13,375 nucleotides of DNA from a virus (lineage: Duplodnaviria > Heunggongvirae > Uroviricota > Caudoviricetes), in the IMG/VR virus record IMGVR_UViG_2563366977_000006; one strand, written 5' to 3'. Under the pieces are notes generated by a model, which worked only from the letters and a program-made list of their open reading frames with translations, searched no databases and was not told the origin of the DNA. Shown here in pieces: positions 1,216 to 13,146 of the stretch; within the stretch, counting starts at the first letter, position 1, and each line of letters starts with the position of its first letter. The position numbers and the translations under genes are program-made.

Positions 1216-1343
1216 CTGGTTGAGTATACAGTAGTAGACTTTGAGCGATTAAGAAAAGGCTGTGTCTAGGGTCGCTCCTGAAAACTCGTACACCTCTGCG
1301 GGCTGGCACAGCCACTTTTACAGAGGGTGCGAGGTAGCACAGA

Positions 1344-2488: not shown

Positions 2489-3337
2489 ATGAAATTTCCA
2501 AAAACGCCCGTACAGGGGCAGGGCTTCGTTCGGCCTGAAAACCAGAATCTGCAAAATTTTGGCGAAATTATCCCGGTTATTTCCGGCGTTATTGGCGGGC
2601 GTGAAACCAATATTGTTAGCGCCAGAGCGTTGCATAAGGCGCTCGGGGTAGGCCGTGATTTCACTACCTGGATTAAAGGACGTATTGATGAGTACGGATT
2701 TAAAAATGGCGTGGATTTTGAAATTGTAGAAAATTTGTACTTTGATTCCCCGAAACGGGGGAACCAAAGTGTAAATATTGAACAGTTTGATTCTGATTGG
2801 ACAACAAAGCGCGGCGGTGATCGCCGCAGTGAAGACTATTTGATCTCCACGAACATGGCGAAAGAACTGGCGATGGTCGAACGCACCGAACAAGGCCGCG
2901 CCGTTCGCCAGTATTTCATCAAATGCGAGGAGGAGCTACACAAGGTGGCGCCAGTGCGTTCCGCAGCGTTACGCCGGGAACTGAAAGCCCGTATCACCGT
3001 TGCCAGCTACTTTAAGCCGATGTGCGCTGCGCTGGAGGCGTACCGGGCTGAACTGGGTAAAAACACGTTCCAGCACCACTACACCACGGAAGCCAATATG
3101 CTGGCGCGTATCGTGCTGGGTGGCATGACTGCAAAACAGTGGGCACTGGCGAACGGCATCACAGGCGAACCACGCGACCACATGAGCGTGTTGCAGCTTG
3201 AGCACCTTTCTTACCTTGAGCAGAGCAATATCACGCTGATTGAGTTAGGCCAGGACTACCACCAGCGAAAAGCTGAATTAATTCGTCTTTCGCAGCGTTG
3301 GTTAGCCCGTCGCATGGAGGAAAACAGCCATGTGTAA
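2489..3337 (+). CDS. phage antirepressor-like protein (AntA/AntB-type N-terminal domain), 282 aa
   Basis: ATG at 2489 with AGGAG 5 nt upstream. N-terminal motif SARALHKALGVGRDFTTWIKGRIDEYGF resembles the antirepressor-type pattern (..R.LH..L.V...F..W...RI..Y.F). C-terminal half is helical and of unknown family. Assignment is by memory of the motif, not a search. Confidence 0.6.
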   Translation: MKFPKTPVQGQGFVRPENQNLQNFGEIIPVISGVIGGRETNIVSARALHKALGVGRDFTTWIKGRIDEYGFKNGVDFEIVENLYFDSPKRGNQSVNIEQFDSDWTTKRGGDRRSEDYLISTNMAKELAMVERTEQGRAVRQYFIKCEEELHKVAPVRSAALRRELKARITVASYFKPMCAALEAYRAELGKNTFQHHYTTEANMLARIVLGGMTAKQWALANGITGEPRDHMSVLQLEHLSYLEQSNITLIELGQDYHQRKAELIRLSQRWLARRMEENSHV

Positions 3338-4009
3338 CGCTCTGACCGTTACAAAAAGAGAAAGCGCCCCGTTGCCGGAGCGCCTTTGTGAACGAATAGC
3401 CTACTGCGCCATATTGCTTACTGTCTACGAGGCAGATTATAGCGTTGTGGTTGCACAGAGTGAAGGCGTTGATCACCGTTACCACAGCACACCAGAAATG
3501 CAGAATATTTTGCTGCAAAATGTCGTTGGTCACGCTGTCCGGAAAGCAAAAAATTTTGCTGGTGGCGCGACTGATGCGATTTTGTCAGGTCGCCAGGTGC
3601 TGATCAATCTGATGTCTGATTTCGTTCTGGATAAAACAAAGGCGACCGCAGAGGGCCACCAGTGGGAAAGCTACACACTTGAACACATCGCCAACAATGC
3701 CAGATTTGCGGTTGGTGGGCAATGTGATCAGTGTGCTGGCTTGCTGGTGGGCTATTCCTGCTCTTTAACATTGCCATGCCGCGATGTTTTCCAGGTATGC
3801 GACCCCATTTTTGTGCGCCTGTACTCTTTAAGGAATTTCTCAAGGATAAACGCACAGGGCGCGAATCTGTCTGACCCATGCTCGTACGCTATCTTTCTGC
3901 GCTGTCTTTTCCGTGCCGGTGATGGTGTATTGGTTGATTCTTTGTTGGTCATGGCGCTGCCCTGTAAAACGATGCACCGTAGTTCCTTACACCACGGCGC
4001 TGGTGATGG
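3330..4009 (+). CDS. possible translationally coupled gene with unresolved 3' end (possible decayed gene); frame stays open to 4886
   Basis: ATG at 3330 overlaps the upstream stop (cATGTGTAA) and has GGAGG 9 nt upstream, which argues for a real start. The first ~130 codons look protein-like, but later the translation becomes Cys/Ser/Arg-rich and the frame has no stop until 4886, running antisense through the repressor gene and its operators. The end coordinate is arbitrary. Confidence 0.25.
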
Positions 4010-4312
4010 TTACTCCTGTTCTTTGGCCTTGCGGCGCTGGAGTTCTTCACGTGCGACGGTGACGAGCTGCCCGATCTCCTCGACAGCTTTGACTCCGATT
4101 TTTTCCACCTGCGCCAGTGCATTGAGCGAAGAAACCAGGGGATTTTCTCCGCTTCCTTCTGCCTGGCGGCGGGCGATCTCACCACGCATGGCGGTTACTA
4201 TGAATCCGGCGTTGCTTTCGCCGTCCAGTTTTACGGATTCCATACCCTCCATAACATCGTGGGGAACCCTGATCGTTGTCATTTGCGATTTTGCATTTTT
4301 GTATACAGACAT
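4010..4312 (-). CDS. ribbon-helix-helix (Arc/CopG-like) DNA-binding regulator, 100 aa; candidate immunity/maintenance repressor
   Basis: Minus-strand ORF; start ATG at 4312 with GGTGA about 6 nt upstream. N-terminus TTIRVPHDVMEGMESVKLDGESNAGFIVTAMRGEIARRQ fits a beta-strand plus two-helix RHH pattern, followed by a helical/coiled C-terminus. It is divergent from the rightward operon. Confidence 0.7.
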   Translation of the reverse strand: MSVYKNAKSQMTTIRVPHDVMEGMESVKLDGESNAGFIVTAMRGEIARRQAEGSGENPLVSSLNALAQVEKIGVKAVEEIGQLVTVAREELQRRKAKEQE

Positions 4313-4332
4313 AGTTAATCACCAATTAGTTA

Positions 4333-4433
4333 TGTGTATATCACTATACACAAAAGTGAGATATAAAAACACTTGCAATGTATATCACCACAATATAATG
4401 TATATCTCACATTGTGATGGCTATGTATCTCAC
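4333..4433. promoter_or_regulatory. operator-like repeats in the divergent control region (4 copies of ATGTAT(A)TC(T)CAC plus palindromes)
   Basis: Read directly: TGTGTATAtcacTATACACA palindrome 4333-4352; ATGTATATCAC 4378-4388; ATGTATATCTCAC 4398-4410; TCACAtTGTGA palindrome 4406-4416; ATGTATCTCAC 4423-4433. All lie between the RHH gene start (4312) and the first rightward gene (4521). Confidence 0.55.
4373..4399 (+). promoter_or_regulatory. candidate sigma70 promoter for the rightward operon (-35 TTGCAA 4373-4378, 15-nt spacer, -10 TATAAT 4394-4399)
   Basis: Hexamers read by eye. The operator-like repeats overlap the spacer and the -10 element, as expected for a repressible promoter. The spacer is on the short side and there is no experimental support. 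Confidence 0.4.
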
Positions 4434-4520
4434 AATGATCGATTCATAAAAACGACGAAACCCGGCAGTGCGCTAACACTAACCGGGCTTCTAACCAAAC
4501 CGTTAAATGAGGTAACGATT

Positions 4521-4886
4521 ATGGCTGGGGCACAGCATACCCAAACTCACCCTAAATTTATATACACCTTCCTGGCGGTGCACCGTAATTGCATAGCTGA
4601 CGGTAAAAACACTGTTCATGTAGCCGCCGATACGCTGGTTGATGCCTGCGAGATGCTCAATGACATGGGCTATATCTCGGCAACATGGAAAGGGCGCGAA
4701 GAAAACACGCTGTTTATTCAGAAATGCGAAAACAATTTTATCTGGCGTTTTATCGCCCTGAGCACAGCACAACCGCGTGTAATTCACATCGAGGCCACCA
4801 GCGAACAGGAAGCACGCCAGCAATCTCCTGATGGCTGCGTGATGGTATTCGCCGCCCGTATTCGCCAGGAGGTGGAACATGTGTAA
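4521..4886 (+). CDS. hypothetical protein, 121 aa (first gene of rightward operon)
   Basis: ATG at 4521 with TGAGGT ending 8 nt upstream; in-frame part of the long ORF-track ORF 3330..4886. Stop overlaps the next start (ATGTGTAA). Confidence 0.65.
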   Translation: MAGAQHTQTHPKFIYTFLAVHRNCIADGKNTVHVAADTLVDACEMLNDMGYISATWKGREENTLFIQKCENNFIWRFIALSTAQPRVIHIEATSEQEARQQSPDGCVMVFAARIRQEVEHV

Positions 4887-5884: not shown

Positions 5885-6175
5885 ATGAAAAAGAAAAATT
5901 CTGGCTTTACTGCCAGCGGTCTCTCTCGGCCTGAAATCAGACACGGAGATATTTACCGCGACACCATACGTGGGGGACGAGCGGTTATTTGTCACGTTAC
6001 GCCAGGAAATATCACCTACCGCCGTGAGGCTTATGAATATGACTGCATAATGCCGCGCCGTCAGTTTGAGCGTGATTTTATTCTGGTGGAGAACAAACAA
6101 CAGGAAGCGACGAGACGTGCAGCCATGAATATTAAAAAAATCCGGGCAATGTTGGTTGCGGGAGGTAAGAAGTGA
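5885..6175 (+). CDS. hypothetical basic protein, 96 aa
   Basis: ATG 5885 with AGGA about 10 nt upstream. Its stop overlaps the GTG start of the primase gene (GTGA). Confidence 0.55.
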   Translation: MKKKNSGFTASGLSRPEIRHGDIYRDTIRGGRAVICHVTPGNITYRREAYEYDCIMPRRQFERDFILVENKQQEATRRAAMNIKKIRAMLVAGGKK

Positions 6176-7977
6176 AAAACGCACCGAGTCTAAAATATCA
6201 GCCGAAGGATAAATTCACTGAGGTAATCATTTTTGCCGGGACGGATGCTTACGCCCATGCTCAACACTGGATTGAAAGTGAAGGACGAAAACACGGCGAT
6301 AACGTGCCTCCTGTTTACCTGGGGCCAAAGCAACTGGCAGACCTGGCGAATATCCGCATTATTGATGAGAAACGCCGTTTTGCGCGTGTCTATATCGCGG
6401 GGGAGATAGAGCCAATCCAGATCAATACTATCGCTGAAAAGCTGGCGCTGGCTGGCGTACAGGAGGCGAAATTATACAAAGGTATCACCGACCAGGAACC
6501 GGAGAACTGGCGCGACTACCTGCAACGGATCCGCGAACAGGCTGAGCACGGGGAAGTTTCAGTGATGAAATTAGCTACAAAAAATAGTGGTCTACCCAAG
6601 CCTGCATTAAATCAGATGGGAGCCAGCCAGAGAGGAGAAGTGTTACTTGAACATTATGGAGGAGCACTGGCGATAAATGATGATTCTGATGTAGTTCACC
6701 ATTACAACGGAATTGTTTGGGAGCCTGTATCTGATAAGGAACTCCAGCGGTCTATGGCGAAGATTTTTATTGATGCCGAAATTAGTTATTCGCAAAACGC
6801 CATTAAATTTGCCGTAGAGACAATGAAATTGAGTCTACCTGTTATGGGGGGAGCGGACAGAAATCTTATTGGGTTCAGTAACGGTGTTTTTGATATCAGG
6901 ACAGGAAATTTTCGGGAACACAACAAAAATGACTGGTTGTTAAATGCCAGTGAATTACCGTTCAGCCCGCCAGAAGAGGGGGAAACGCTGGCAACACATG
7001 CGCCGAATTTCTGGAAGTGGTTGCGTCGTTCGGTGGCGGATAATGCTCGTAAAGCGGATCGCGTACTGGCGGCATTATTCATGGTACTGGCGAACCGGTA
7101 CGACTGGCAGTTATTCCTTGAGGTAACGGGGCCGGGCGGAAGCGGTAAAAGTGTGATGGCGGAGATTTGTACCATGCTGGCGGGTAAGGCCAATACAGTA
7201 TCGGCGAGCATGAAGGCGCTGGAAGACGCGAGGGAACGAGCGTTAGTGGTGGGATATTCTCTGATTATCATGCCTGACATGACCCGCTACGCAGGTGATG
7301 GTGCTGGGATTAAGGCCATTACAGGCGGTGACAAGGTGGCTATCGATCCGAAACACAAAGCGCCCTATTCCACGCGCGTTCCTGCGGTAGTGCTGGCAGT
7401 AAACAATAATGCCATGTCATTCAGCGACCGTAGTGGGGGGATCTCGCGTCGACGAGTGATATTTAATTTCTCTGAGGTTGTACCAGAGAACGAACGCGAT
7501 CCGATGCTGGCGAAAAAGATAGAAGGGGAACTGGCCGTAGTGATTCGCCATTTGCTTACACGATTTGCCGACCAGGACGAAGCGAAAAGACTACTTTATG
7601 AGCAGCAAAAATCAGAAGAAGCACTGTTAATAAAGCGTGAAGGTGATTCGCTGGTGGACTTCTGCGGTTATCTGATGTCGTTGGTTAAATGTGAGGGGAT
7701 GATAGTAGGTAATGCAGAAATAGTGCCATTTAGCCCGAGGCGATATCTGTATCATGCTTATTTGGCTTATATGTCTGCGCATGGTCTGGGAAAACCGGTA
7801 TCACTGACACGCTTTGGTACAGATATGCCAGGGGCAATGGCTGAGTACGGAAAGGAGTACAAGCGGGCTAAATGCACTAAAGGTCCAGATAAAGGGCGAA
7901 CGATCACAAATGTTCTGTTAGATAAAGATGCTGATGGATGGTTACCAGCAGCGGCAGGCATTAACGACAGAACATGA
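6172..7977 (+). CDS. P4 alpha-like / PICI pri-rep-like replication protein (primase C-terminal region plus SF3-type P-loop helicase), 601 aa
   Basis: GTG 6172 with GGAGG 6 nt upstream. Walker A motif VTGPGGSGKSV, followed by a hydrophobic-acidic stretch LVVGYSLIIMPDM (Walker B-like). Size and position immediately upstream of an iteron origin match satellite/phage-plasmid primase-helicases. Family call is by motif and context only. Confidence 0.8.
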   Translation: MKNAPSLKYQPKDKFTEVIIFAGTDAYAHAQHWIESEGRKHGDNVPPVYLGPKQLADLANIRIIDEKRRFARVYIAGEIEPIQINTIAEKLALAGVQEAKLYKGITDQEPENWRDYLQRIREQAEHGEVSVMKLATKNSGLPKPALNQMGASQRGEVLLEHYGGALAINDDSDVVHHYNGIVWEPVSDKELQRSMAKIFIDAEISYSQNAIKFAVETMKLSLPVMGGADRNLIGFSNGVFDIRTGNFREHNKNDWLLNASELPFSPPEEGETLATHAPNFWKWLRRSVADNARKADRVLAALFMVLANRYDWQLFLEVTGPGGSGKSVMAEICTMLAGKANTVSASMKALEDARERALVVGYSLIIMPDMTRYAGDGAGIKAITGGDKVAIDPKHKAPYSTRVPAVVLAVNNNAMSFSDRSGGISRRRVIFNFSEVVPENERDPMLAKKIEGELAVVIRHLLTRFADQDEAKRLLYEQQKSEEALLIKREGDSLVDFCGYLMSLVKCEGMIVGNAEIVPFSPRRYLYHAYLAYMSAHGLGKPVSLTRFGTDMPGAMAEYGKEYKRAKCTKGPDKGRTITNVLLDKDADGWLPAAAGINDRT

Positions 7978-8011
7978 TACGAAATTTATAAGTTGAAACT
8001 TAAAAGTAGAC

Positions 8012-8340
8012 GGTTGGTAGACAGATACACTTAACCCTCTACCAACCATCTACTAATTAATATTTTGAATTATATAGGTATTTTTAATGTGGTAGAGAGG
8101 TGGACATTTTATTTTATATTTCTAAACCACGGGGGTATCTAAAAATAGATAGTTATGGGTTCATTTTTAAAATTTTTCTTTTAACTATCTACACTGTCTA
8201 CCATTTAGTAAAAATCATTAATTATCAATGTATTAATACGGTAGAGAGTTGGTAGACAGTTTGCAGATTGTTTTTTGTTATGTGTGAACAACATTAAATA
8301 AATCAATCAATTATATCGATAGACAGTTGGTAGACAGTTG
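8012..8340. repeat. putative iteron-type origin of replication: about 7 copies of GGTAGA(C/G)AG in both orientations within an AT-rich region
   Basis: Read directly: GGTTGGTAGACAG 8012-8024; inverted CTCTACCAACC 8037-8047; GGTAGAGAGG 8091-8100; inverted CTGTCTACC 8194-8202; GGTAGAGAGTTGGTAGACAG 8240-8259; ATAGACAGTTGGTAGACAGTTG 8319-8340. Inverted repeat TAGATAGTT (8146-8154) / AACTATCTA (8182-8190) flanks a very AT-rich stretch that could act as an unwinding element. Confidence 0.6.
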
Positions 8341-8345
8341 TAACG

Positions 8346-8888
8346 ATGGGGCAAAGCATGACTAAGCTGACCATTAACAGAAAACCAAAAGGCATTTACG
8401 GCACGCCGCAGAAAACGACGCAGGCGGCGCAAGAGCAGGATAAAACCACATCGGCGCATAAAGTGATGCCCGGTAACCAGAAAGCGCAGCAGAAGCCCAT
8501 AGGGGCGACACCGTGGCGGCATATGACCAAGCGCCAGCGCAAAAACCTCAGGCGCATTAACCGCCTCACTGAGTTGTGGCCTGAATTATTCAGCCGGGAA
8601 GCACCGAAGCCGCTTAAGGTGGGGATATTCGACGACCTGATGCAGGATCTCGCCGTCAGGGGGCTGGCATTCGGGCCAGGGGCATTGCGTGCGACGCTGG
8701 CATCTTATGCGCAGTGTCCGCGCTATTACCGCGCCTTAATGGCTGGTGGGGTACGCTACGACCTGAAATGCCAGCCGTGCGGCGAGGTGACACCACAGGA
8801 ACAACAGGACGCAGAAACGCGGCTGGTTGCGCTGAATGAGAAACGCAAACGTCAGCGTCGGGCAGCAAAGGAGAAAACAGGCGCATGA
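8346..8888 (+). CDS. FinO/ProQ-domain RNA-binding protein with basic N-terminal extension, 180 aa
   Basis: The segment LTELWPELFSREAPKPLKVGIFDDLMQDLA...LRATLASYAQCPRYYRALMAGGVRYDLKCQPCGEVTPQEQQDAETRL parallels the ProQ N-terminal FinO domain (LAERFPHCF...RPLKIGIFQDL...LRSALRLYTSSWRYL...RVDLDGNPCGEL). A second in-frame ATG at 8358 is an alternative start. Confidence 0.75.
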   Translation: MGQSMTKLTINRKPKGIYGTPQKTTQAAQEQDKTTSAHKVMPGNQKAQQKPIGATPWRHMTKRQRKNLRRINRLTELWPELFSREAPKPLKVGIFDDLMQDLAVRGLAFGPGALRATLASYAQCPRYYRALMAGGVRYDLKCQPCGEVTPQEQQDAETRLVALNEKRKRQRRAAKEKTGA

Positions 8889-9172
8889 TTCACGACAGCA
8901 AAGCGGAAGCTCTGGAAGCGCGTGGTCTGTACCGGAGAGCGGCGGCGCGGTGGGCTGAGGTCATCATGCTGGCGAATGATGACAAGGCACGGGAACAGGC
9001 GGCAAAACGTCGCGCGGAATGTATCCACAAGGCAGCACGCCCACCAGCAAGGCAGGATAATTTCGGGGAGATGCGCAAAACCATCAGCCGGGCACATGCC
9101 GGGATGGGATTACATCAGCCCAATGGTGAGGCATTCAGGAAATACCAAAAAAAGAACAATTGTAGTCATTAA
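8885..9172 (+). CDS. PerC-like transcriptional regulator, 95 aa
   Basis: ATG 8885 overlaps the upstream stop (ATGA), with AAGGAG 11 nt upstream. N-terminus MIHDSKAEALEARGLYRRAAARWAEVIM resembles PerC-family proteins as I remember them; not verified by search. Confidence 0.55.
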   Translation: MIHDSKAEALEARGLYRRAAARWAEVIMLANDDKAREQAAKRRAECIHKAARPPARQDNFGEMRKTISRAHAGMGLHQPNGEAFRKYQKKNNCSH

Positions 9173-9306
9173 CAGAGGATGGGATTCTCTTGGTTTTTTG
9201 TTGATGCTTTCTGAGGAAATCTACTACGTTGCTGAGCAGATGAATATTCAATTGCATCTGGGTTCCTGATAAGATTAATCTGAATATTTTCATTTGGAAT
9301 AGGGAT

Positions 9307-10449
9307 ATGAATAAAACTTTAATTGCAACATTAGTCGGTATAGTAATGTTAACCGGATGTGGGCCAGAAGAGTTAACTCCAGAACAGAAACAGGAAGTAG
9401 CGGCTCTTAAAGCTGAACTGTCGCAAACGGAAGGTGAAATATCAGCAGCTAAGGAAGTTGACCAGCAGTTTTCTGGTGGGTTGATAAAAAATCTGACAAC
9501 AGCAAGACTGGAAATATTAGGAACTAATAAAGCGCTTTTGGAACAGCGTATTAATGCTATTGAATCAGGCGCCAAAATTGATGTTGTTGTATCTGGAGTA
9601 AAACCTGATCCTGAGCTTGCGGCTTCAATTAAAACTGAAATTGACAGCTTAGATGCAAAAATCAACGAAGCCAAAGCTGATGCTCGTCAGTATAGTGGTG
9701 GTCTGATAAAGGTACTAAAATTATCTACTGTTGCCACTGAAGAGCAGACCATGGCAATGTTGCAGCAAAAGTACCTCACAGCCAAGTATGGCCTCGCTGA
9801 AGTTAAGCTGGCATCAGTACAAGATAATGACGCAAAAAACAGTACTGAAACGGAAGTAACAGCCAAAAATTCCCAAGAGCAACTTCCTTTACTCCCGCCA
9901 GCGGATGGTCCGTTTGGCTTAGAAGCCGGTCTTACACAGAAAAACATCGAAGATATGATCGGTGCTAAGCTCAAGCCACTACCAGACAGTGTGAATCTGT
10001 ATACTTCTGATAAATTACCGAAGCAAAACGCAGATTTTGAAATGTATGGTTTGTTGATCTCCCCGAAAGCTGGTTTATGTCAAATACGGGCTTTAGGAAA
10101 AAATATTGATACTGATAGCTATGGATTGGCTCTTAAATCCAAGTTTGAAGAATTGAGTAATTCTTTAAGTTCTCTGTATGGAAAGGCTGATACTACAGAC
10201 TTTTTGCTGGCTGGTTCAATTTGGAAAGATCCTCAGGACTGGATGAGGGGGCTAAACAAAAAAGAACGCTTCTTATCTGCCACATGGAAGGGAACAAAAG
10301 AAATACCATTAAAAAACAATATTGATACTATCTCTATTGAGGCCAGAGCGAACAATTCCACTCAGGGATATGTCTATCTGCAGTACTCATTTACAAATGA
10401 CGAAATTTGTCAGGCAGAAATTGAAGGGGCGAAAAAAAGTTCCCTTTAA
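9307..10449 (+). CDS. lipoprotein (380 aa) with internal tandem repeat and C-terminal globular domain; function unknown
   Basis: Signal peptide with lipobox MNKTLIATLVGIVMLTGC (Cys18, Gly at +2). Two repeat units each carrying ...AK-x-D-x-Q-(F/Y)-SGGLIK-x-L... (SGGLIK at nt 9472-9489 and 9694-9711). AT-rich compared with the replication genes. Confidence 0.8.
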   Translation: MNKTLIATLVGIVMLTGCGPEELTPEQKQEVAALKAELSQTEGEISAAKEVDQQFSGGLIKNLTTARLEILGTNKALLEQRINAIESGAKIDVVVSGVKPDPELAASIKTEIDSLDAKINEAKADARQYSGGLIKVLKLSTVATEEQTMAMLQQKYLTAKYGLAEVKLASVQDNDAKNSTETEVTAKNSQEQLPLLPPADGPFGLEAGLTQKNIEDMIGAKLKPLPDSVNLYTSDKLPKQNADFEMYGLLISPKAGLCQIRALGKNIDTDSYGLALKSKFEELSNSLSSLYGKADTTDFLLAGSIWKDPQDWMRGLNKKERFLSATWKGTKEIPLKNNIDTISIEARANNSTQGYVYLQYSFTNDEICQAEIEGAKKSSL

Positions 10450-10461
10450 ACAATCCGTGCA

Positions 10462-10488
10462 AAGCCCCTTAGTAAGGGGCTTTTATAT
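10462..10488 (+). terminator. intrinsic terminator after the lipoprotein gene
   Basis: Perfect 9-bp stem AAGCCCCTT (10462-10470) / AAGGGGCTT (10474-10482) with 3-nt loop, followed by a T-run (TTTTAT), 13 nt after the stop codon. Confidence 0.7.
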
Positions 10489-10513
10489 ATTAATGTTCAA
10501 CGGGGGGGATTAG

Positions 10514-10837
10514 ATGAAAGATAATCTAGAAAAACTAATTGAAAATACTTTAAAAGATATTCTATTAGCTAATGCTGCTCTAACATTCATTTTTGCAATA
10601 CCAATGGCTATTATCAGTAGGCATGGGATGGGCATCACAATCTGGTTTATAACTGTGCTCATTGCACCTGCTCTGTGTGCAGTAGGTGCATGGCTTGTAT
10701 CTCGAACATTCGGCCATGCTGAGGAGTTCTTTCATCGTCGGTGGGCTAAGCGAATTTATGTTTTTTATACTCTTGCGGCTGCCGAGTTTTTGCTTGTGTA
10801 CTCAATCGCGCAAATAATGAAAAATCTGATGAAATAA
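10514..10837 (+). CDS. small integral membrane protein, 107 aa (2-3 predicted TM helices)
   Basis: ATG 10514 with G-rich SD upstream. Hydrophobic stretches AALTFIFAIPMAII, ITIWFITVLIAPALCAVGAWLV and YVFYTLAAAEFLLVYSIAQIM. AT-rich. Confidence 0.6.
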   Translation: MKDNLEKLIENTLKDILLANAALTFIFAIPMAIISRHGMGITIWFITVLIAPALCAVGAWLVSRTFGHAEEFFHRRWAKRIYVFYTLAAAEFLLVYSIAQIMKNLMK

Positions 10838-11026
10838 TTAACAAGTTATTATCATGGGGTTTGTGGCTGTTAACCTGCAGTGAGGCGACAATCGTGTATT
10901 TATAAAAACTTCCCCTTTTCACTCCCCGCTGTTTCTTCTGCTATTTCCTTTATGTTTGCATGCAGCAACATCTGCCATACCTTTGCAGAAAAATCAGAGC
11001 ATTTAGTGCCGAAGGTTGGTTTATTG

Positions 11027-11119
11027 ATGCTTTTTGTTTCATTTATTGCAATTATCGCTGGTATCATTTCAATTTGTGCAATAATTGCAATTATTGTCAT
11101 TCAGAAGGGATCATCATGA
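11027..11119 (+). CDS. possible 30-aa hydrophobic peptide MLFVSFIAIIAGIISICAIIAIIVIQKGSS (single TM)
   Basis: In-frame ATG inside ORF-track ORF 10880..11119, with AAGG about 11 nt upstream. Almost entirely hydrophobic with a polar C-terminus. Its stop overlaps the ATG of the next gene (ATGA). Could equally be non-coding. Confidence 0.3.
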   Translation: MLFVSFIAIIAGIISICAIIAIIVIQKGSS

Positions 11120-11283
11120 AAAATCACGGAGTAAAGCCAGTTTTACTTTCCCGGGGGCAAATCGAAGCCCTGCAACGTATCCAGGCCGAAAGGCGTCAGA
11201 AATCTGTGCTTGGTGTGGCACCGTCGATTCATGTTATTGCCCGGCAACTGATGGATAAGGCACTTAAAGAGGTGAGGCTGTGA
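11116..11283 (+). CDS. hypothetical small protein, 55 aa
   Basis: ATG 11116 with AGGGA 6 nt upstream; in-frame within ORF-track ORF 10960..11283, whose N-terminal part is Cys/Tyr/Asn-rich and implausible. Stop overlaps the GTG start of the next ORF. Confidence 0.5.
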   Translation: MKNHGVKPVLLSRGQIEALQRIQAERRQKSVLGVAPSIHVIARQLMDKALKEVRL

Positions 11284-11552
11284 AATTAAATATCAGAGTG
11301 GATAAACGCCAGCTATGGCAGAAAAAAGAGAACAGCGAGGCATTCAGGGCTTTGCTGGTGGAAAATCTTCGGCACCGGTTCAGTGGAGAGTTGCCTGATG
11401 CACTGGGGAAGAAACTGGAATCCCTGACGGTGGAAATTGGCGATTATGGCTTTGTTGATGTTGAAAGCACGACTGCCAACACAGAAATCGTAAAGCAGGT
11501 CGTCAATGATGTAATGAAAACCACGCTTAGCCAGCCATCCTGGCGCAACTGA
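11280..11552 (+). CDS. hypothetical protein, 90 aa
   Basis: GTG start overlapping the upstream stop (GTGA); followed by a hairpin terminator. Confidence 0.5.
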   Translation: MKLNIRVDKRQLWQKKENSEAFRALLVENLRHRFSGELPDALGKKLESLTVEIGDYGFVDVESTTANTEIVKQVVNDVMKTTLSQPSWRN

Positions 11553-11558
11553 ATCAGT

Positions 11559-11583
11559 AAGGGGCGGTTATTGCCCCTTTCCT
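11559..11583 (+). terminator. probable intrinsic terminator
   Basis: 7-bp stem AAGGGGC (11559-11565) / GCCCCTT (11573-11579) with 7-nt loop, followed by a short T/C-rich tract. The T-run is weak. Confidence 0.45.
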
Positions 11584-11651
11584 CCATACCCACAACGCAT
11601 TCCCTTTTCGCATGAAATTATTTTTTATCGTATATGCATGAGGTGAGCTAC

Positions 11652-12176
11652 ATGTTGATGAGTAAAGCCGAATACGCCAAATACAAAGGCGTAAGCCGCC
11701 AGACAGTTTACGACTGGATCGAGAAAGGCGAAGTGATCATGTCTGGCAAAAAAATTGATGTGGAGGCGACAGAGCAGCGGAACAGCCCACCGGCACAGGG
11801 GAAAGACACCGTTTCTGAAATGTGGCCAGAAAGAACGCTGGAAATGACGTGGGGCGAGTTCTGGAAAGCAGTTAAGGCCAGAGACGGTAAAATCCCTGCG
11901 CCAGTAACGGACGACGACATACAGCAACGTGTGCTGGATGCAGCCGGGGAATTCGGCTGGGAAGTGCAATTTCTTGATGATGGCGGGATTTGGATGGATG
12001 ACGGCGATGCTGAGTTTTATTTCGAGCAATATGATCTCAGGCAGAATGCCGAACTGGTGATTGGTACGCTGCGACGTGAGGTCTGTTATGTGGCTGATGC
12101 TTGTCCTGACGAGCTGGATAACTGGAGCGAAGCCGGACTAAACGCCCTGGCTGCATGGGAAAAAACAGGTCATTAA
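11652..12176 (+). CDS. HTH DNA-binding protein (Nu1/excisionase-like winged-helix N-terminus) with acidic C-terminal domain, about 175 aa
   Basis: ATG 11652 with GAGGTG 6 nt upstream; ORF-track start 11634 and ATG 11658 are alternatives. N-terminus MSKAEYAKYKGVSRQTVYDWIEKGEV has the pattern of small-terminase Nu1-type / excisionase-type HTH. The C-terminus is Asp/Glu-rich. Confidence 0.65.
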   Translation: MLMSKAEYAKYKGVSRQTVYDWIEKGEVIMSGKKIDVEATEQRNSPPAQGKDTVSEMWPERTLEMTWGEFWKAVKARDGKIPAPVTDDDIQQRVLDAAGEFGWEVQFLDDGGIWMDDGDAEFYFEQYDLRQNAELVIGTLRREVCYVADACPDELDNWSEAGLNALAAWEKTGH

Positions 12177-12183
12177 CGGCCGC

Positions 12184-12466
12184 AAAAAGTGTCAAGTTGA
12201 GCAGCTTGCCAGGTTGACACTTTACACTCTGAACACGAAAAAGTGTCAACCTCGCTGTAAGCCCCGCCGTTACTGGCTTTGCGCCATATTTACCACATCA
12301 AAAAGCAGAAAAAATCGCGAAAAGTGTCAAGTTGCCATGCTTAGAAATGCTAAGTTTTGTTAAGGTTTTTCGCGAAAAAGTGTCAAGTGTGTCAACCTGC
12401 GATATTAAGATTTATTAAGGTCTTAAGCCGGAAAGTGTCAACCAGCCCCTAAGATTTCCTAAGGTG
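12184..12466. repeat. interleaved iteron array: 6 direct and 1 inverted copies of AAAGTGTCAA plus 3 copies of TAAG-N-TTT-NN-TAAGGT
   Basis: Read directly. AAAGTGTCAA cores at 12186-12195, 12240-12249, 12321-12330, 12377-12386, 12432-12441; inverted copy at 12214-12223; partial GTGTCAAC at 12390-12397. Second family: TAAGTTTTGTTAAGGT 12351-12366, TAAGATTTATTAAGGT 12406-12421, TAAGATTTCCTAAGGT 12449-12464. Confidence 0.7.
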
Positions 12467-12489
12467 TGATTGAACGTGCTGTAACCTTC

Positions 12490-12518
12490 TTGTCGTAATG
12501 TGGATGAATGACTATAGT
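12490..12518 (+). promoter_or_regulatory. candidate sigma70 promoter for the AT-rich downstream gene (-35 TTGTCG, 17-nt spacer, -10 TATAGT)
   Basis: Hexamers read by eye at 12490-12495 and 12513-12518; about 47 nt upstream of the ATG at 12565. Confidence 0.35.
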
Positions 12519-12564
12519 GCTGGTAACTTTGACCGCAGAATCAGATTACTGAAGGAAGTGTGTG

Positions 12565-13146
12565 ATGAGTTTTTTTAGTCTTTATGGGAAAGAACTATTT
12601 TCTTTTTTTATAGCGATTTTAACATGGATACTGAATAACAGATTTAAAAGCAAGGCAAAGTTATCCTATGGTTATCAGCATGGATTTACTTTTCTTCTCA
12701 ATGAACCCTTACGGAATGCTAATGGTGAGGTAATATCTAATTCACAGTTGGTGTATACACGATCTATTATTCTTGTTAATGAAGGGCGAGAAAGTGCTAC
12801 TAATATATCATTGGTTTTTAACTATAAACCAATGCATATTAATTTTTGGCCTGTCCACCATTTTGAAGAAAATATTGAACAGGATGGTCGCTATATTATC
12901 AAGTTTGAAAACCTTGCACCTAGTGAGTCTATTCAATGTGAAATATTATCAATAAATAGAGAAGTTCCAAGTATTCTATCGATAAGATCTAAAGAGTGTG
13001 TGGCTGAGCCAGTGAATATCGTGATGCAAAAATCGATTAGTAATATTGCCCTACGTTGCTATCAATTATTAATACTTCTTGGAACTGGCACATTAACATA
13101 TTTAATTATCGTTATTCTGCAATGGTTAGTCACTAAAACGGGATAA
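12565..13146 (+). CDS. hypothetical protein, 193 aa, with N- and C-terminal transmembrane helices flanking a ~140-aa central domain; very AT-rich
   Basis: ATG 12565 with GAAGGAAG upstream; the ORF track starts one codon earlier at GTG 12562. N-terminal TM LFSFFIAILTWIL; C-terminal TM LLILLGTGTLTYLIIVILQWLV. Hand count of 12601-12660 gives about 28% G+C. Confidence 0.7.
   Translation: MSFFSLYGKELFSFFIAILTWILNNRFKSKAKLSYGYQHGFTFLLNEPLRNANGEVISNSQLVYTRSIILVNEGRESATNISLVFNYKPMHINFWPVHHFEENIEQDGRYIIKFENLAPSESIQCEILSINREVPSILSIRSKECVAEPVNIVMQKSISNIALRCYQLLILLGTGTLTYLIIVILQWLVTKTG

What the first reader, a model, noticed from the sequence alone, without database searches (positions are those of the whole stretch)
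9307..10837. AT-rich cargo: repeat-containing lipoprotein plus small membrane protein of unknown function
A 380-aa predicted lipoprotein carries two tandem ~70-aa repeats (SGGLIK motif) and a C-terminal globular domain. It is followed by a strong terminator and a small multi-pass membrane protein. Both genes are markedly more AT-rich than the backbone (hand count about 32% versus about 55% G+C), implying separate acquisition. Envelope-located cargo on a satellite is a plausible superinfection-exclusion or anti-phage module, and I recognise no known family.
Basis: partly seen in the sequence, partly recalled or inferred. Interest (0 to 1): 0.7.

Follow-up and report, generated by a model that had tools for sequence, protein, structure and literature searches.

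The report
Lipoprotein moron on a phage satellite
A self-contained 1.85-kb insert on an E. coli phage-satellite island encodes a lipid-anchored periplasmic protein from an uncharacterised family that temperate phages repeatedly carry beside their tape-measure gene, so it is a good but untested candidate for a new blocker of phage entry.

Summary
The sequence features are real. There is a 380-aa lipoprotein (lipobox LTGC, Cys18) with two about 74-aa helical-hairpin repeats (SGGLIK at residues 56 and 130), a disordered linker and a 180-aa globular domain. It is followed by a terminator hairpin and a 107-aa protein with three hydrophobic segments. The G+C figures are wrong: the region is 40.0% against 46.5% for the rest of the window, and only the two genes just upstream reach 55-58%.

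Cargo status is shown better by an indel. Window 9187-11031 is precisely absent from otherwise syntenic E. coli islands. The host element matches PICI criteria: its integrase is 96% identical to that of the mobilised satellite EcCIMP1, with the same att core. Neither domain matches Pfam, NCBIfam, PADLOC or a solved structure.

Homologues (47-89% identical) behave as insulated single-gene morons in P2-like prophages, PICI-type islands and siphovirus prophages. In the siphoviruses they repeatedly sit beside the tape-measure gene, the HK97 gp15 slot. The 107-aa gene accompanies only the closest clade.

The most likely function is superinfection exclusion at entry or injection (about 0.4, inferred, not tested). 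The rivals are toxin immunity and an envelope fitness factor.

The parts
9187..11031 (+). Insertion/deletion cassette (1,845 bp) that carries both genes. It is present in this island and absent from syntenic islands.
   Evidence: blastn of window 8300-11700 against E. coli DE17 (L130) aligns 8364-9186 and 11032-11700, with only about 13 bp between them in L130. WP2-W18-CRE-03 (L131) aligns 8342-9146 and 11066-11700 (annotations).
9261..9306 (+). Conserved leader that travels with the gene. It holds a candidate extended -10 (TG 9267-9268, TAAGAT 9270-9275) and a Shine-Dalgarno-like TAGGGA (9300-9305).
   Evidence: TGnTAGGAT...GGGATAGGGAT-ATG is conserved upstream of homologues in E. coli, Klebsiella, Pseudescherichia, Rahnella, Rouxiella and Enterobacter. 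One Klebsiella-type locus (L035) keeps only ...GATTAGGGAT, and L050 has TGGTTAGGAT and lacks the GGGAT block. Further-upstream flanks are unrelated. Promoter activity is inferred; the generic sigma-70 scan did not call it.
9307..10449 (+). Lipoprotein gene (380 aa; RefSeq WP_016262936, 'hypothetical protein').
   Evidence: ORF. 319 homologues found by the word-indexed search. 2,860 representatives at 50% clustering. dN/dS about 0.05.
9307..9360 (+). Signal peptide and lipobox (residues 1-18; L15-T16-G17-C18, followed by G19).
   Evidence: Read directly from the sequence. G17, C18, G19 and P20 are invariant in alignment A1. Gly rather than Asp follows the lipidated Cys, which by the E. coli Lol sorting rule (established knowledge) predicts outer-membrane anchoring.
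9379..9564 (+). Repeat 1: an antiparallel helical hairpin (residues 25-86) with FSGGLIK at the turn.
   Evidence: Internal alignment z = 7.6. AF2 helices 25-54 and 59-86. The only PDB sequence match is a designed antiparallel coiled coil, 9tls.
9610..9789 (+). Repeat 2: an antiparallel helical hairpin (residues 102-161) with YSGGLIK at the turn.
9796..9903 (+). Variable, acidic, disordered linker (residues about 164-199).
   Evidence: pLDDT below 50 for residues 164-208. It is the least conserved block of alignment A1.
9904..10446 (+). C-terminal globular domain (residues 200-380). It starts with GPFGL and has invariant Cys258 and Cys368.
10461..10483 (+). Intrinsic terminator hairpin followed by a T-tract.
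   Evidence: Equivalent hairpins follow the gene in the Klebsiella, Enterobacter and Pantoea loci, with a weaker one in the Rahnella locus.
10514..10837 (+). Gene for a 107-aa basic protein with three hydrophobic segments (WP_016262937). It is a clade-specific companion of the lipoprotein gene.
   Evidence: ORF. Hydropathy and dN/dS about 0.17. Only 17 homologue clusters, all at least 67% identical. It is present next to the lipoprotein in E. coli, Klebsiella (68% identity) and Yokenella (48%), and absent elsewhere.
10838..11031 (.). Right-hand end of the cassette. It overlaps small ORFs on both strands (RefSeq annotates a 66-aa ORF at 10900-11100 on the minus strand).
   Evidence: Not analysed further.

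Best explanation
Shown.
- Window 9187-11031 is a horizontally moving accessory cassette (a moron) inserted between perC and the downstream genes of a 16-kb PICI-type satellite island at tRNA-Thr.
- Its main gene encodes a Sec/signal-peptidase-II lipoprotein. The mature protein has a lipid anchor, two antiparallel helical hairpins, a roughly 35-40-residue flexible acidic linker, and a compact 180-aa alpha/beta domain with two invariant cysteines.
- The N-terminal module and the C-terminal domain are independent, uncharacterised periplasmic modules that are widespread in diderm bacteria.
- In Enterobacterales the fused form has been captured as an insulated single-gene unit by P2-like prophages, siphovirus prophages and PICI-type islands.

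Inferred.
- The protein is made in the lysogen or island carrier and is tethered to the inner leaflet of the outer membrane.
- Its globular domain, on a long leash, binds a conserved envelope component or the incoming tail-tip/tape-measure apparatus in the periplasm. This blocks entry or DNA injection by superinfecting phages, that is, superinfection exclusion.
- The 107-aa membrane protein is a lineage-specific add-on that may assist this or act independently. It is not required for the family's function.
For: - Cargo status: the cassette shows a presence/absence polymorphism in syntenic islands.
- Distribution in E. coli: it is present in 113 of 5,426 complete genomes at 99% identity or more, while 329 genomes carry related proQ/perC segments.
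- Insulation: a terminator follows the gene in every context examined, and a conserved TGnTAGGAT leader or an upstream terminator precedes it.
- Lipoprotein features are invariant across homologues.
- Carriage on at least four kinds of temperate element:
  - right after the integrase of a P2/186-like prophage in Rahnella;
  - after the primase of Enterobacter and Klebsiella islands;
  - in a decayed Klebsiella island at the same tRNA-Thr site;
  - in siphovirus prophages inside a moron cluster (Doc toxin, repressor, two Ant genes), 65 nt upstream of the tape-measure gene.
- Tape-measure adjacency: 29 of 123 loci have a tape-measure gene within 3.5 kb on the same strand, in several clades that are only 47-63% identical to one another. 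These include a C-domain-only gene in Acinetobacter. Further cases are L161 (major tail protein, a 239-aa ORF in the chaperone position, lipoprotein, tape measure), L164 and L170-171 (same strand), plus L176, where the tape-measure gene is adjacent on the opposite strand.
- Known precedent for the slot: HK97 gp15, a proven superinfection-exclusion moron, sits between the tail chaperone and the tape-measure gene, and its action depends on the incoming tail (PMC3594210).
- Known precedents for the mechanism: periplasm-facing outer-membrane lipoproteins (T5 Llp, Cor) and a lipid-anchor-spacer-repeat lipoprotein (Ltp, which targets the tape-measure protein).
- The best viral structural match is a phage lipoprotein.
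- A related PICI at the same att site confers superinfection immunity through an unidentified gene. That element lacks this gene.
Against: - There is no functional data of any kind.
- No PADLOC model matches.
- tblastn found no match in 50,697 GenBank phage genomes.
- The C-domain family is mostly found in ordinary chromosomal neighbourhoods outside Enterobacterales, next to EAL/HD-GYP, TRAP, MatE and epimerase genes. In Pantoea the full-length gene lies next to folD. The fold therefore has a non-phage ancestral role.
- The protein is very conserved (dN/dS about 0.05). That fits a conserved host target but not an arms race with phage proteins.
- Lipoprotein alleles that are 99% identical sit next to unrelated tape-measure proteins (23% identity over 252 aa). 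The adjacency may therefore reflect a permissive moron slot rather than a functional pairing.
- The window's own island has no tape-measure gene.
- Promoter activity and outer-membrane sorting are predictions.
Confidence: 0.4

Rival explanations
1. Envelope fitness or virulence factor (lysogenic conversion unrelated to phages). Like lambda Bor and Lom, the lipoprotein would alter envelope properties such as serum or antimicrobial-peptide resistance, adhesion or envelope homeostasis. It would be carried by temperate elements because it benefits the host.
For: - The architecture is that of a moron, and morons are known to encode such factors (PMC3594210).
- The gene lies next to perC-type virulence regulators in PICIs.
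- The C-domain has broad chromosomal distribution in ordinary neighbourhoods, and there is a chromosomal copy in Pantoea.
- Sequence conservation is strong.
Against: - There is no similarity to Bor, Lom, TraT or any Pfam family.
- Recurrent placement beside tape-measure genes across divergent lineages is not predicted by this reading. It is not excluded either, because lom also lies in a tail region (general knowledge).
Confidence: 0.22
2. Periplasmic immunity or inhibitor protein. The globular domain would neutralise an envelope-acting toxin or enzyme (a T6SS/Rhs/CDI effector, a colicin or a lysozyme). It would be carried as an orphan immunity gene that protects carriers in bacterial competition.
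For: - In other proteins the N-terminal module is fused to a T6SS-associated VasI domain.
- The protein is predicted to be periplasmic and has two invariant cysteines.
Against: - No toxin or effector gene is adjacent in any of about 120 loci, and no partner is conserved at all.
- The gene is flanked by terminators rather than being in an effector-immunity operon.
Confidence: 0.15
3. The protein serves the element's own life cycle, for example as a spanin-like or lysis accessory (with the three-segment 107-aa protein acting as a holin-like partner), or as a helper-exploitation factor linked to tape-measure or ejection proteins.
For: - An outer-membrane lipoprotein with coiled-coil segments, followed by a roughly 107-aa protein with three hydrophobic segments, superficially recalls spanin plus class I holin (resemblance from general knowledge).
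- In related PICIs the slot after the primase holds DNA-delivery proteins: a tape-measure protein and a tail-completion protein in Klebsiella-type islands, and P22-like ejection proteins in EcCIMP1.
Against: - No endolysin or lysis cassette is nearby, and the lipoprotein has no C-terminal transmembrane segment.
- Homologues occur next to integrases, in chromosomal sites and without the 107-aa gene.
- Islands that lack the cassette are otherwise intact.
- The small protein lacks the charged C-terminal tail typical of holins (read from the sequence).
Confidence: 0.08

Closest known systems
HK97 gp15 moron (superinfection-exclusion protein; YebO-derived)
   Same: - It is an independent transcription unit whose composition deviates from its neighbours and which has its own terminator.
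- It has bacterial homologues outside prophages.
- In siphovirus relatives (L053, L161) the lipoprotein occupies the same slot, between the tail-chaperone position and the tape-measure gene.
   Different: - gp15 is a small inner-membrane protein with no lipobox, and there is no sequence relationship.
- In this window the gene sits in a satellite island with no tape-measure gene.
- The function here is untested.
T5 Llp / Cor family of superinfection-exclusion lipoproteins
   Same: - They are phage-encoded, outer-membrane-anchored, periplasm-facing lipoproteins with an internal disulfide.
- Their genes sit beside tail or receptor-binding genes.
- They act on a conserved host target, which would fit the strong conservation seen here.
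   Different: - Llp and Cor are about 60-80 aa single small domains. This protein is 380 aa with hairpin repeats, a linker and a new 180-aa fold.
- No sequence or profile match was found.
- No link to FhuA or another TonB-dependent receptor is known.
Ltp of Streptococcus thermophilus phage TP-J34
   Same: The modular logic matches: a lipid anchor, a flexible spacer and tandem repeats. Ltp blocks DNA injection by binding the tape-measure protein. The mature protein here is acidic (pI 4.9); in Ltp, negatively charged residues are reported to matter for binding the tape-measure protein.
   Different: - Ltp is a 142-aa protein of a Gram-positive host whose repeats are the active domains.
- Here the repeats are helical hairpins next to the anchor, and the distal globular domain is the most conserved part.
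- There is no homology.
EcCIMP1 and other Gram-negative PICIs (the host element, not the gene)
   Same: The integrase is 96% identical. The tRNA-Thr (proA/yagU) site and the TCCTATTATC att core are the same. AlpA, AntA, Icd, DUF4222, a primase and PerC are all present (PMC11773190).
   Different: - The primase type differs (D5-like versus Toprim/DUF927).
- EcCIMP1 carries P22-like ejection-protein genes instead of this cassette.
- Mobilisation of the present island has not been shown.
DcrB / PsbP / Mog1-like and 'double-wing' periplasmic alpha+beta domains
   Same: The C-domain shares the general antiparallel-sheet-plus-helices topology. Several of these proteins are periplasmic lipoproteins or immunity proteins.

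Membership tests
Bacterial lipoprotein (Sec/SPII substrate) | N-terminal signal peptide with a positive n-region, a hydrophobic h-region and a lipobox [LVI][ASTVI][GAS]C | tested here: met
   MNK-TLIATLVGIVM-LTG-C18. G17 and C18 are invariant and L15 is at least 90% conserved in 23 homologues.
Bacterial lipoprotein (Sec/SPII substrate) | Actual lipidation and outer-membrane sorting (no Asp after the lipidated Cys) | not testable with these tools
   Residue 19 is an invariant Gly, which predicts outer-membrane sorting by the Lol rule. Fractionation and globomycin experiments are needed.
Moron (Hendrix/Juhala definition) | Present in some and absent from other, otherwise syntenic, elements | tested here: met
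   Window 9187-11031 is missing from the DE17 and WP2-W18-CRE-03 islands, whose flanks are 88-94% identical.
Moron (Hendrix/Juhala definition) | Own terminator | tested here: met
   Hairpin at 10461-10483, -14.5 kcal/mol, followed by a T-tract. Analogous hairpins occur in three other genera, with a weaker one in Rahnella.
Moron (Hendrix/Juhala definition) | Own promoter, expressed from the repressed element | tested here: inconclusive
   A conserved TGnTAGGAT lies about 35 nt upstream of the ATG in six of eight loci with unrelated flanks. The window itself has TAAGAT, and L050 has the TG displaced by one base. Other clades have upstream terminators. The generic promoter scan called no site, and no expression data are available.
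Moron (Hendrix/Juhala definition) | Base composition differs from the surrounding genes | tested here: met
40.0% against 55-58% for the adjacent proQ/perC and 46.5% for the rest of the window.
Llp/Cor superinfection-exclusion lipoproteins | Sequence or profile similarity; small (about 60-80 aa) mature protein | tested here: not met
   No Pfam, PHROG or NCBIfam hit. The mature protein is 362 aa.
Ltp-type superinfection-exclusion lipoproteins | Tandem helix-turn-helix-like repeat domains homologous to Ltp | tested here: not met
   No family or PDB sequence match. The repeats are long antiparallel helical hairpins.
Known anti-phage defence systems (PADLOC-DB v2) | Match to a defence-protein model | tested here: not met
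   No families at E up to 0.1 for either protein.
Spanin / holin lysis proteins | Location in a lysis cassette with an endolysin; C-terminal transmembrane segment (u-spanin) or Rz partner; holin with a charged C-terminal tail | tested here: not met
   No endolysin is annotated in the island. The lipoprotein has no C-terminal hydrophobic segment. The small protein ends in ...AQIMKNLMK. Homologues lie outside lysis modules.
PICI (host element) | Integrase, AlpA and primase/replication module in PICI order; size about 10-20 kb; no virion structural or lysis genes | tested here: met
   The integrase, an AlpA-like helix-turn-helix protein, AntA, Icd, DUF4222 and a D5-type primase are present. The element spans 16.1 kb between TCCTATTATC repeats. 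The int-alpA RNA (RF02996) is present.
PICI (host element) | Helper-phage-induced excision, replication and packaging | not testable with these tools
   The only evidence is homology to EcCIMP1 (integrase 96%, same att), which was mobilised experimentally.

The most novel reading that the evidence does not exclude
The lipoprotein founds a new class of periplasmic phage-entry blockers. A globular domain with a previously undescribed fold hangs from the outer membrane on a helical-hairpin stalk and a long flexible leash. It intercepts the tape-measure or ejection conduit, or jams its envelope receptor. Temperate siphoviruses, P2-like phages and PICI satellites exchange it as a single-gene moron, preferentially into the slot beside the tape-measure gene. 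The same domain in free-living diderm bacteria would then be a widespread, unrecognised envelope-guard module.
Probability: 0.25. Interest if true: 0.7.

Novelty: new variant of a known kind. Interest (0 to 1): 0.5.

Why it matters
Blocks to phage entry and injection are much less well catalogued than cytoplasmic defence systems. The few known examples (Llp/Cor, Ltp, gp15, SieA) are small, unrelated proteins.

This family is large: about 2,860 representatives at 50% identity. It has no annotation in any library searched. Its C-terminal domain can be modelled with confidence. In Enterobacterales, including Klebsiella, Enterobacter, Serratia and E. coli clinical lineages, it is carried by prophages and satellites.

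If it excludes phages, it would matter for three reasons:
- it would affect phage-therapy host-range prediction;
- it would give a handle on the poorly understood periplasmic step of siphovirus DNA delivery;
- it would define two new domain families.

If it does not, it is still a clean example of a moron shared between phages and their satellites.

Tried and rejected
- **Family libraries.** Pfam, PHROGs, NCBIfam and PADLOC gave no significant hit for either protein. The weak NCBIfam LpoB and SA0632 hits cover only the signal peptide. Pfam on distant standalone relatives also gave nothing for either domain. Only phrog_28385 (unknown function) matched, for 3 of 44 C-domain proteins.
- **PDB sequence searches.** Profiles A1 and A3 matched only designed coiled coils or noise.
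- **Foldseek against afdb50.** The library was unavailable.
- **Genome scan.** It was redone with 10 sequences.
- **GenBank phages.** tblastn found no match.
- **Literature.** Searches by accession and by topic found no description of the family.
- **Conserved functional partner.** Rejected. Clustering of neighbours in about 120 loci shows no gene that co-occurs across clades. The 107-aa gene is restricted to the closest clade.
- **Allele-specific co-evolution with the adjacent tape-measure protein.** Rejected. Lipoproteins that are 99% identical sit next to unrelated tape-measure proteins.
- **Spanin/holin reading.** Rejected on context and on the missing defining features.
- **G+C as proof of separate acquisition.** Rejected as stated, because other island genes are equally or more AT-rich.
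Full report
**1. What the window is**

The window is 100% identical to the chromosome of E. coli SCU-104. It covers most of an element integrated at tRNA-Thr between proA and the pao/yagU region. The gene order is:
- integrase;
- a 251-aa ORF;
- an AlpA-like helix-turn-helix protein;
- AntA;
- an Icd-like fragment;
- small ORFs;
- DUF4222;
- a D5-type primase;
- ProQ/FinO;
- PerC;
- the two genes of the finding;
- further small genes.

Rfam finds the int-alpA RNA at 1259-1327.

The integrase is 96% identical to that of EcCIMP1. EcCIMP1 is a PICI shown experimentally to be induced and mobilised by phage Kapi1, and it sits at the same tRNA-Thr site. Its reported att core, TCCTATTATC, occurs twice in the SCU-104 locus, 16.07 kb apart, bracketing the element. 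Calling the element a satellite is therefore reasonable by homology and gene content. Mobilisation of this particular island has not been shown.

**2. Checking the observation**

- The 380-aa ORF (9307-10449) and the 107-aa ORF (10514-10837) exist as described.
- The lipobox L-T-G-C18 is invariant in homologues down to 61% identity.
- SGGLIK occurs at residues 56 and 130. The two halves align with z = 7.6 against shuffles.
- AlphaFold models two helix-turn-helix hairpins, a disordered linker (164-208) and an alpha/beta domain.
- The C-domain was modelled alone with 43 diverse homologues. It reaches pLDDT 97 and pTM 0.90.
- The terminator at 10461-10483 is confirmed, at -14.5 kcal/mol.
- The small protein has three hydrophobic segments.
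- Both genes evolve under purifying selection, with dN/dS of about 0.05 and 0.17 between E. coli and Klebsiella. They are real genes. The long antisense ORFs (9135-9674 and 9687-9974) have no such support and are most likely spurious.

The composition claim is inaccurate. The region is 40.0% G+C against 46.5% for the rest of the window. The 32% figure corresponds to GC3, and the 55% figure to proQ/perC alone.

**3. Cargo status**

A megablast of 8346-11552 against 5,426 complete E. coli genomes finds related proQ/perC islands in 329 genomes. The cassette itself is present in 113 genomes.

In strains DE17 and WP2-W18-CRE-03 the flanks align at 88-94% identity. Window 9187-11031 is replaced by about 13 bp in DE17. 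In WP2-W18-CRE-03 window 9147-11065 is missing and is replaced by about 180 bp of unrelated sequence. This is direct evidence of a 1.85-kb accessory cassette, and it is stronger evidence than base composition.

**4. The lipoprotein gene is an insulated unit that moves on its own**

Homologues of 61-89% identity are found in Klebsiella, Enterobacter, Serratia, Rahnella, Yersinia, Pantoea and Xenorhabdus. Their contexts differ:
- A decayed island at the same tRNA-Thr site in K. pneumoniae carries the lipoprotein gene together with the 107-aa gene.
- In Rahnella the gene lies immediately after the integrase of a P2/186-like prophage and is followed by an unrelated 324-aa gene.
- In Enterobacter hormaechei it lies after the Toprim/DUF927 primase of PICI-type islands, without the 107-aa gene.
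- In Pantoea it lies in a chromosomal site next to folD and a DUF1198 gene.

In each case a terminator hairpin follows the gene. Upstream, a block containing TGnTAGGAT lies about 35 nt before the start codon. It is conserved in eight loci whose further flanks are unrelated. In other clades an upstream terminator precedes the gene. This fits the published definition of a moron (PMC3594210). Promoter activity is inferred.

**5. The 107-aa gene**

It has only 17 homologue clusters, all at least 67% identical and all from Enterobacteriaceae.
- It follows the lipoprotein gene in E. coli, in Klebsiella (68% identity) and in Yokenella (48% identity).
- It is absent in Pseudescherichia (lipoprotein 86% identical) and from all deeper clades.

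It is therefore a lineage-specific companion and not a defining partner. It lies downstream of the terminator. I could not determine how it is expressed.

**6. Two independent, uncharacterised modules**

An exhaustive profile search finds about 2,860 representatives. Among the top 150:
- 34 have both modules;
- 38 have the N-terminal hairpin module with other C-termini, one of them a T6SS-associated VasI domain;
- 78 have only the C-domain. These are typically about 200-aa proteins in which GPFGL directly follows a signal peptide.

Some versions are anchored by a transmembrane helix instead of a lipid. The periplasm, rather than a particular membrane, is therefore the common location.

The C-domain occurs in Gamma-, Beta-, Alpha- and Delta-proteobacteria, Acidobacteria, Spirochaetes, Bacteroidota and Campylobacterota. 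It has no conserved neighbour. Outside Enterobacterales its neighbourhoods are mostly ordinary chromosomal ones.

**7. Recurrent association with temperate phages and the tape-measure gene**

IMG/VR holds 51 loci with relatives. Clustering and PHROG annotation give the following picture.
- In the clade 47% identical to the window protein, the gene lies in a moron cluster (Doc-like toxin, repressor, two anti-repressors). The cluster is inserted after the major tail protein and a phrog_791 gene, and the lipoprotein gene ends 65 nt upstream of the tape-measure gene. gpM- and gpL-like genes follow.
- In Klebsiella-type islands (64% identity) the order is primase, SSB, then the lipoprotein gene, then a tape-measure gene and a tail-completion gene.

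Overall, 29 of 123 loci have a tape-measure gene within 3.5 kb, always on the same strand. They fall in several clades that are only 47-63% identical to one another and include a C-domain-only gene in Acinetobacter.

A second scan adds more cases:
- L161, with the order major tail protein, a 239-aa ORF in the chaperone position, lipoprotein, tape measure;
- L164, on the same strand;
- L170 and L171, on the same strand;
- L176, where the tape-measure gene is adjacent but on the opposite strand.

The slot between the tail chaperone and the tape-measure gene is where HK97 carries gp15. gp15 is a proven superinfection-exclusion moron whose action depends on the incoming phage's tail.

Lipoprotein alleles that are 99% identical lie next to unrelated tape-measure proteins. 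The association is therefore with the slot or the function, not with a particular tape-measure allele.

**8. Mechanism**

Shown:
- lipoprotein features;
- the modular architecture;
- cargo status;
- the insulated transcription unit;
- carriage by several kinds of temperate element.

Inferred:
- outer-membrane anchoring, because the residue after the lipidated Cys is Gly;
- expression in the carrier state;
- a function in blocking phage entry.

Two sub-mechanisms are compatible with known precedents. One is jamming of a conserved envelope receptor from the periplasmic side, as T5 Llp does to FhuA. This fits the very low dN/dS. The other is interference with the tape-measure or ejection conduit, as with Ltp and gp15. 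This fits the genomic position.

I put the superinfection-exclusion reading at about 0.4. The rivals are:
- an envelope fitness or virulence factor, about 0.22;
- a toxin-immunity or inhibitor protein, about 0.15;
- a role in the element's own cycle, about 0.08.

The remainder is left for something not considered.

**9. Verdict**

The 'two-gene module' part is weakened. The anti-phage role remains a well-motivated hypothesis.

The family is a new, confidently modellable domain pair deployed as a moron. I classify it as a new variant of a known kind (phage- or satellite-borne envelope lipoproteins), of moderate interest.

Noticed in passing
window 1259-1327 (+): Rfam int-alpA RNA (RF02996; 44.7 bits, E = 1.2e-6) lies between the integrase gene and the next ORF. 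This fits a PICI/P4-type regulatory region.
   Followed up: no
L035-L046, L049 (IMG/VR); for example L035 1954-4068, 8001-9140, 11161-13965, 14508-14879: Klebsiella-type islands of about 20-25 kb carry a primase and an SSB. They also carry a full-length tape-measure gene (about 900-1,020 aa) and a tail-completion (Neck1) gene, but no capsid genes in the stretch seen. These may be satellites that supply their own tail-length or DNA-delivery protein.
   Followed up: partly
L129 (E. coli MP1, EcCIMP1) 5981-11149: In the equivalent slot after the primase, the experimentally mobilised PICI EcCIMP1 carries P22-like ejection-protein genes (DUF2824, 'phage DNA ejection protein', a lytic transglycosylase). 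This matches its podovirus helper. Together with the tape-measure-bearing islands, it suggests that this PICI family carries DNA-delivery proteins matched to the helper type.
   Followed up: partly
L053 versus L064 (lipoprotein 7992-9134; tape measure 9199-12534 and 10140-13070): Lipoprotein alleles that are 99% identical sit upstream of tape-measure proteins sharing only 23% identity over 252 residues. The moron has been exchanged recently between different tail modules and has landed in the same position.
   Followed up: yes
window 12562-13146 (+): A 194-aa ORF with N- and C-terminal hydrophobic segments has the lowest G+C of any ORF measured in the window (32.3%; GC3 25%). It is present in some and absent from other E. 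coli island variants, and in Klebsiella it lies upstream of the lipoprotein gene on the opposite strand. It looks like a second cargo gene. It has no family hit.
   Followed up: partly
L001 18459-19951 (beyond the window's right end); L131 5633-7132: The variable right arm of these islands carries a DUF4747 gene plus a 199-aa gene in SCU-104 and DE17, and a SIR2-family gene in WP2-W18-CRE-03. These look like defence-hotspot cargo.
   Followed up: no
window 3330-4886 (+): A 518-aa open frame has only its last roughly 50 residues matching Icd-like cell-division inhibitors. RefSeq annotates just an Icd fragment plus two minus-strand genes (one of the YlcI/YnfO family) in this stretch. RefSeq also flags AntA (2489-3337) as a pseudogene with an internal stop, although the window shows an intact 282-aa ORF.
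   Followed up: no
window 7978-8345: The 368-bp intergenic region upstream of proQ is only 28.5% G+C, the most AT-rich stretch of the window.
   Followed up: no
L174 (IMG/VR) around 7001-7540: The C-domain (215 aa) and the N-terminal hairpin module (200 aa) are encoded as two adjacent separate genes, in the order C then N. This is independent evidence that the two modules work together without being fused.
   Followed up: no
window 10880-11119 (+) and 10900-11100 (-): Overlapping small ORFs with hydrophobic stretches lie at the right edge of the cassette. RefSeq annotates the minus-strand one (66 aa). It is unclear whether either is a real gene.
   Followed up: no
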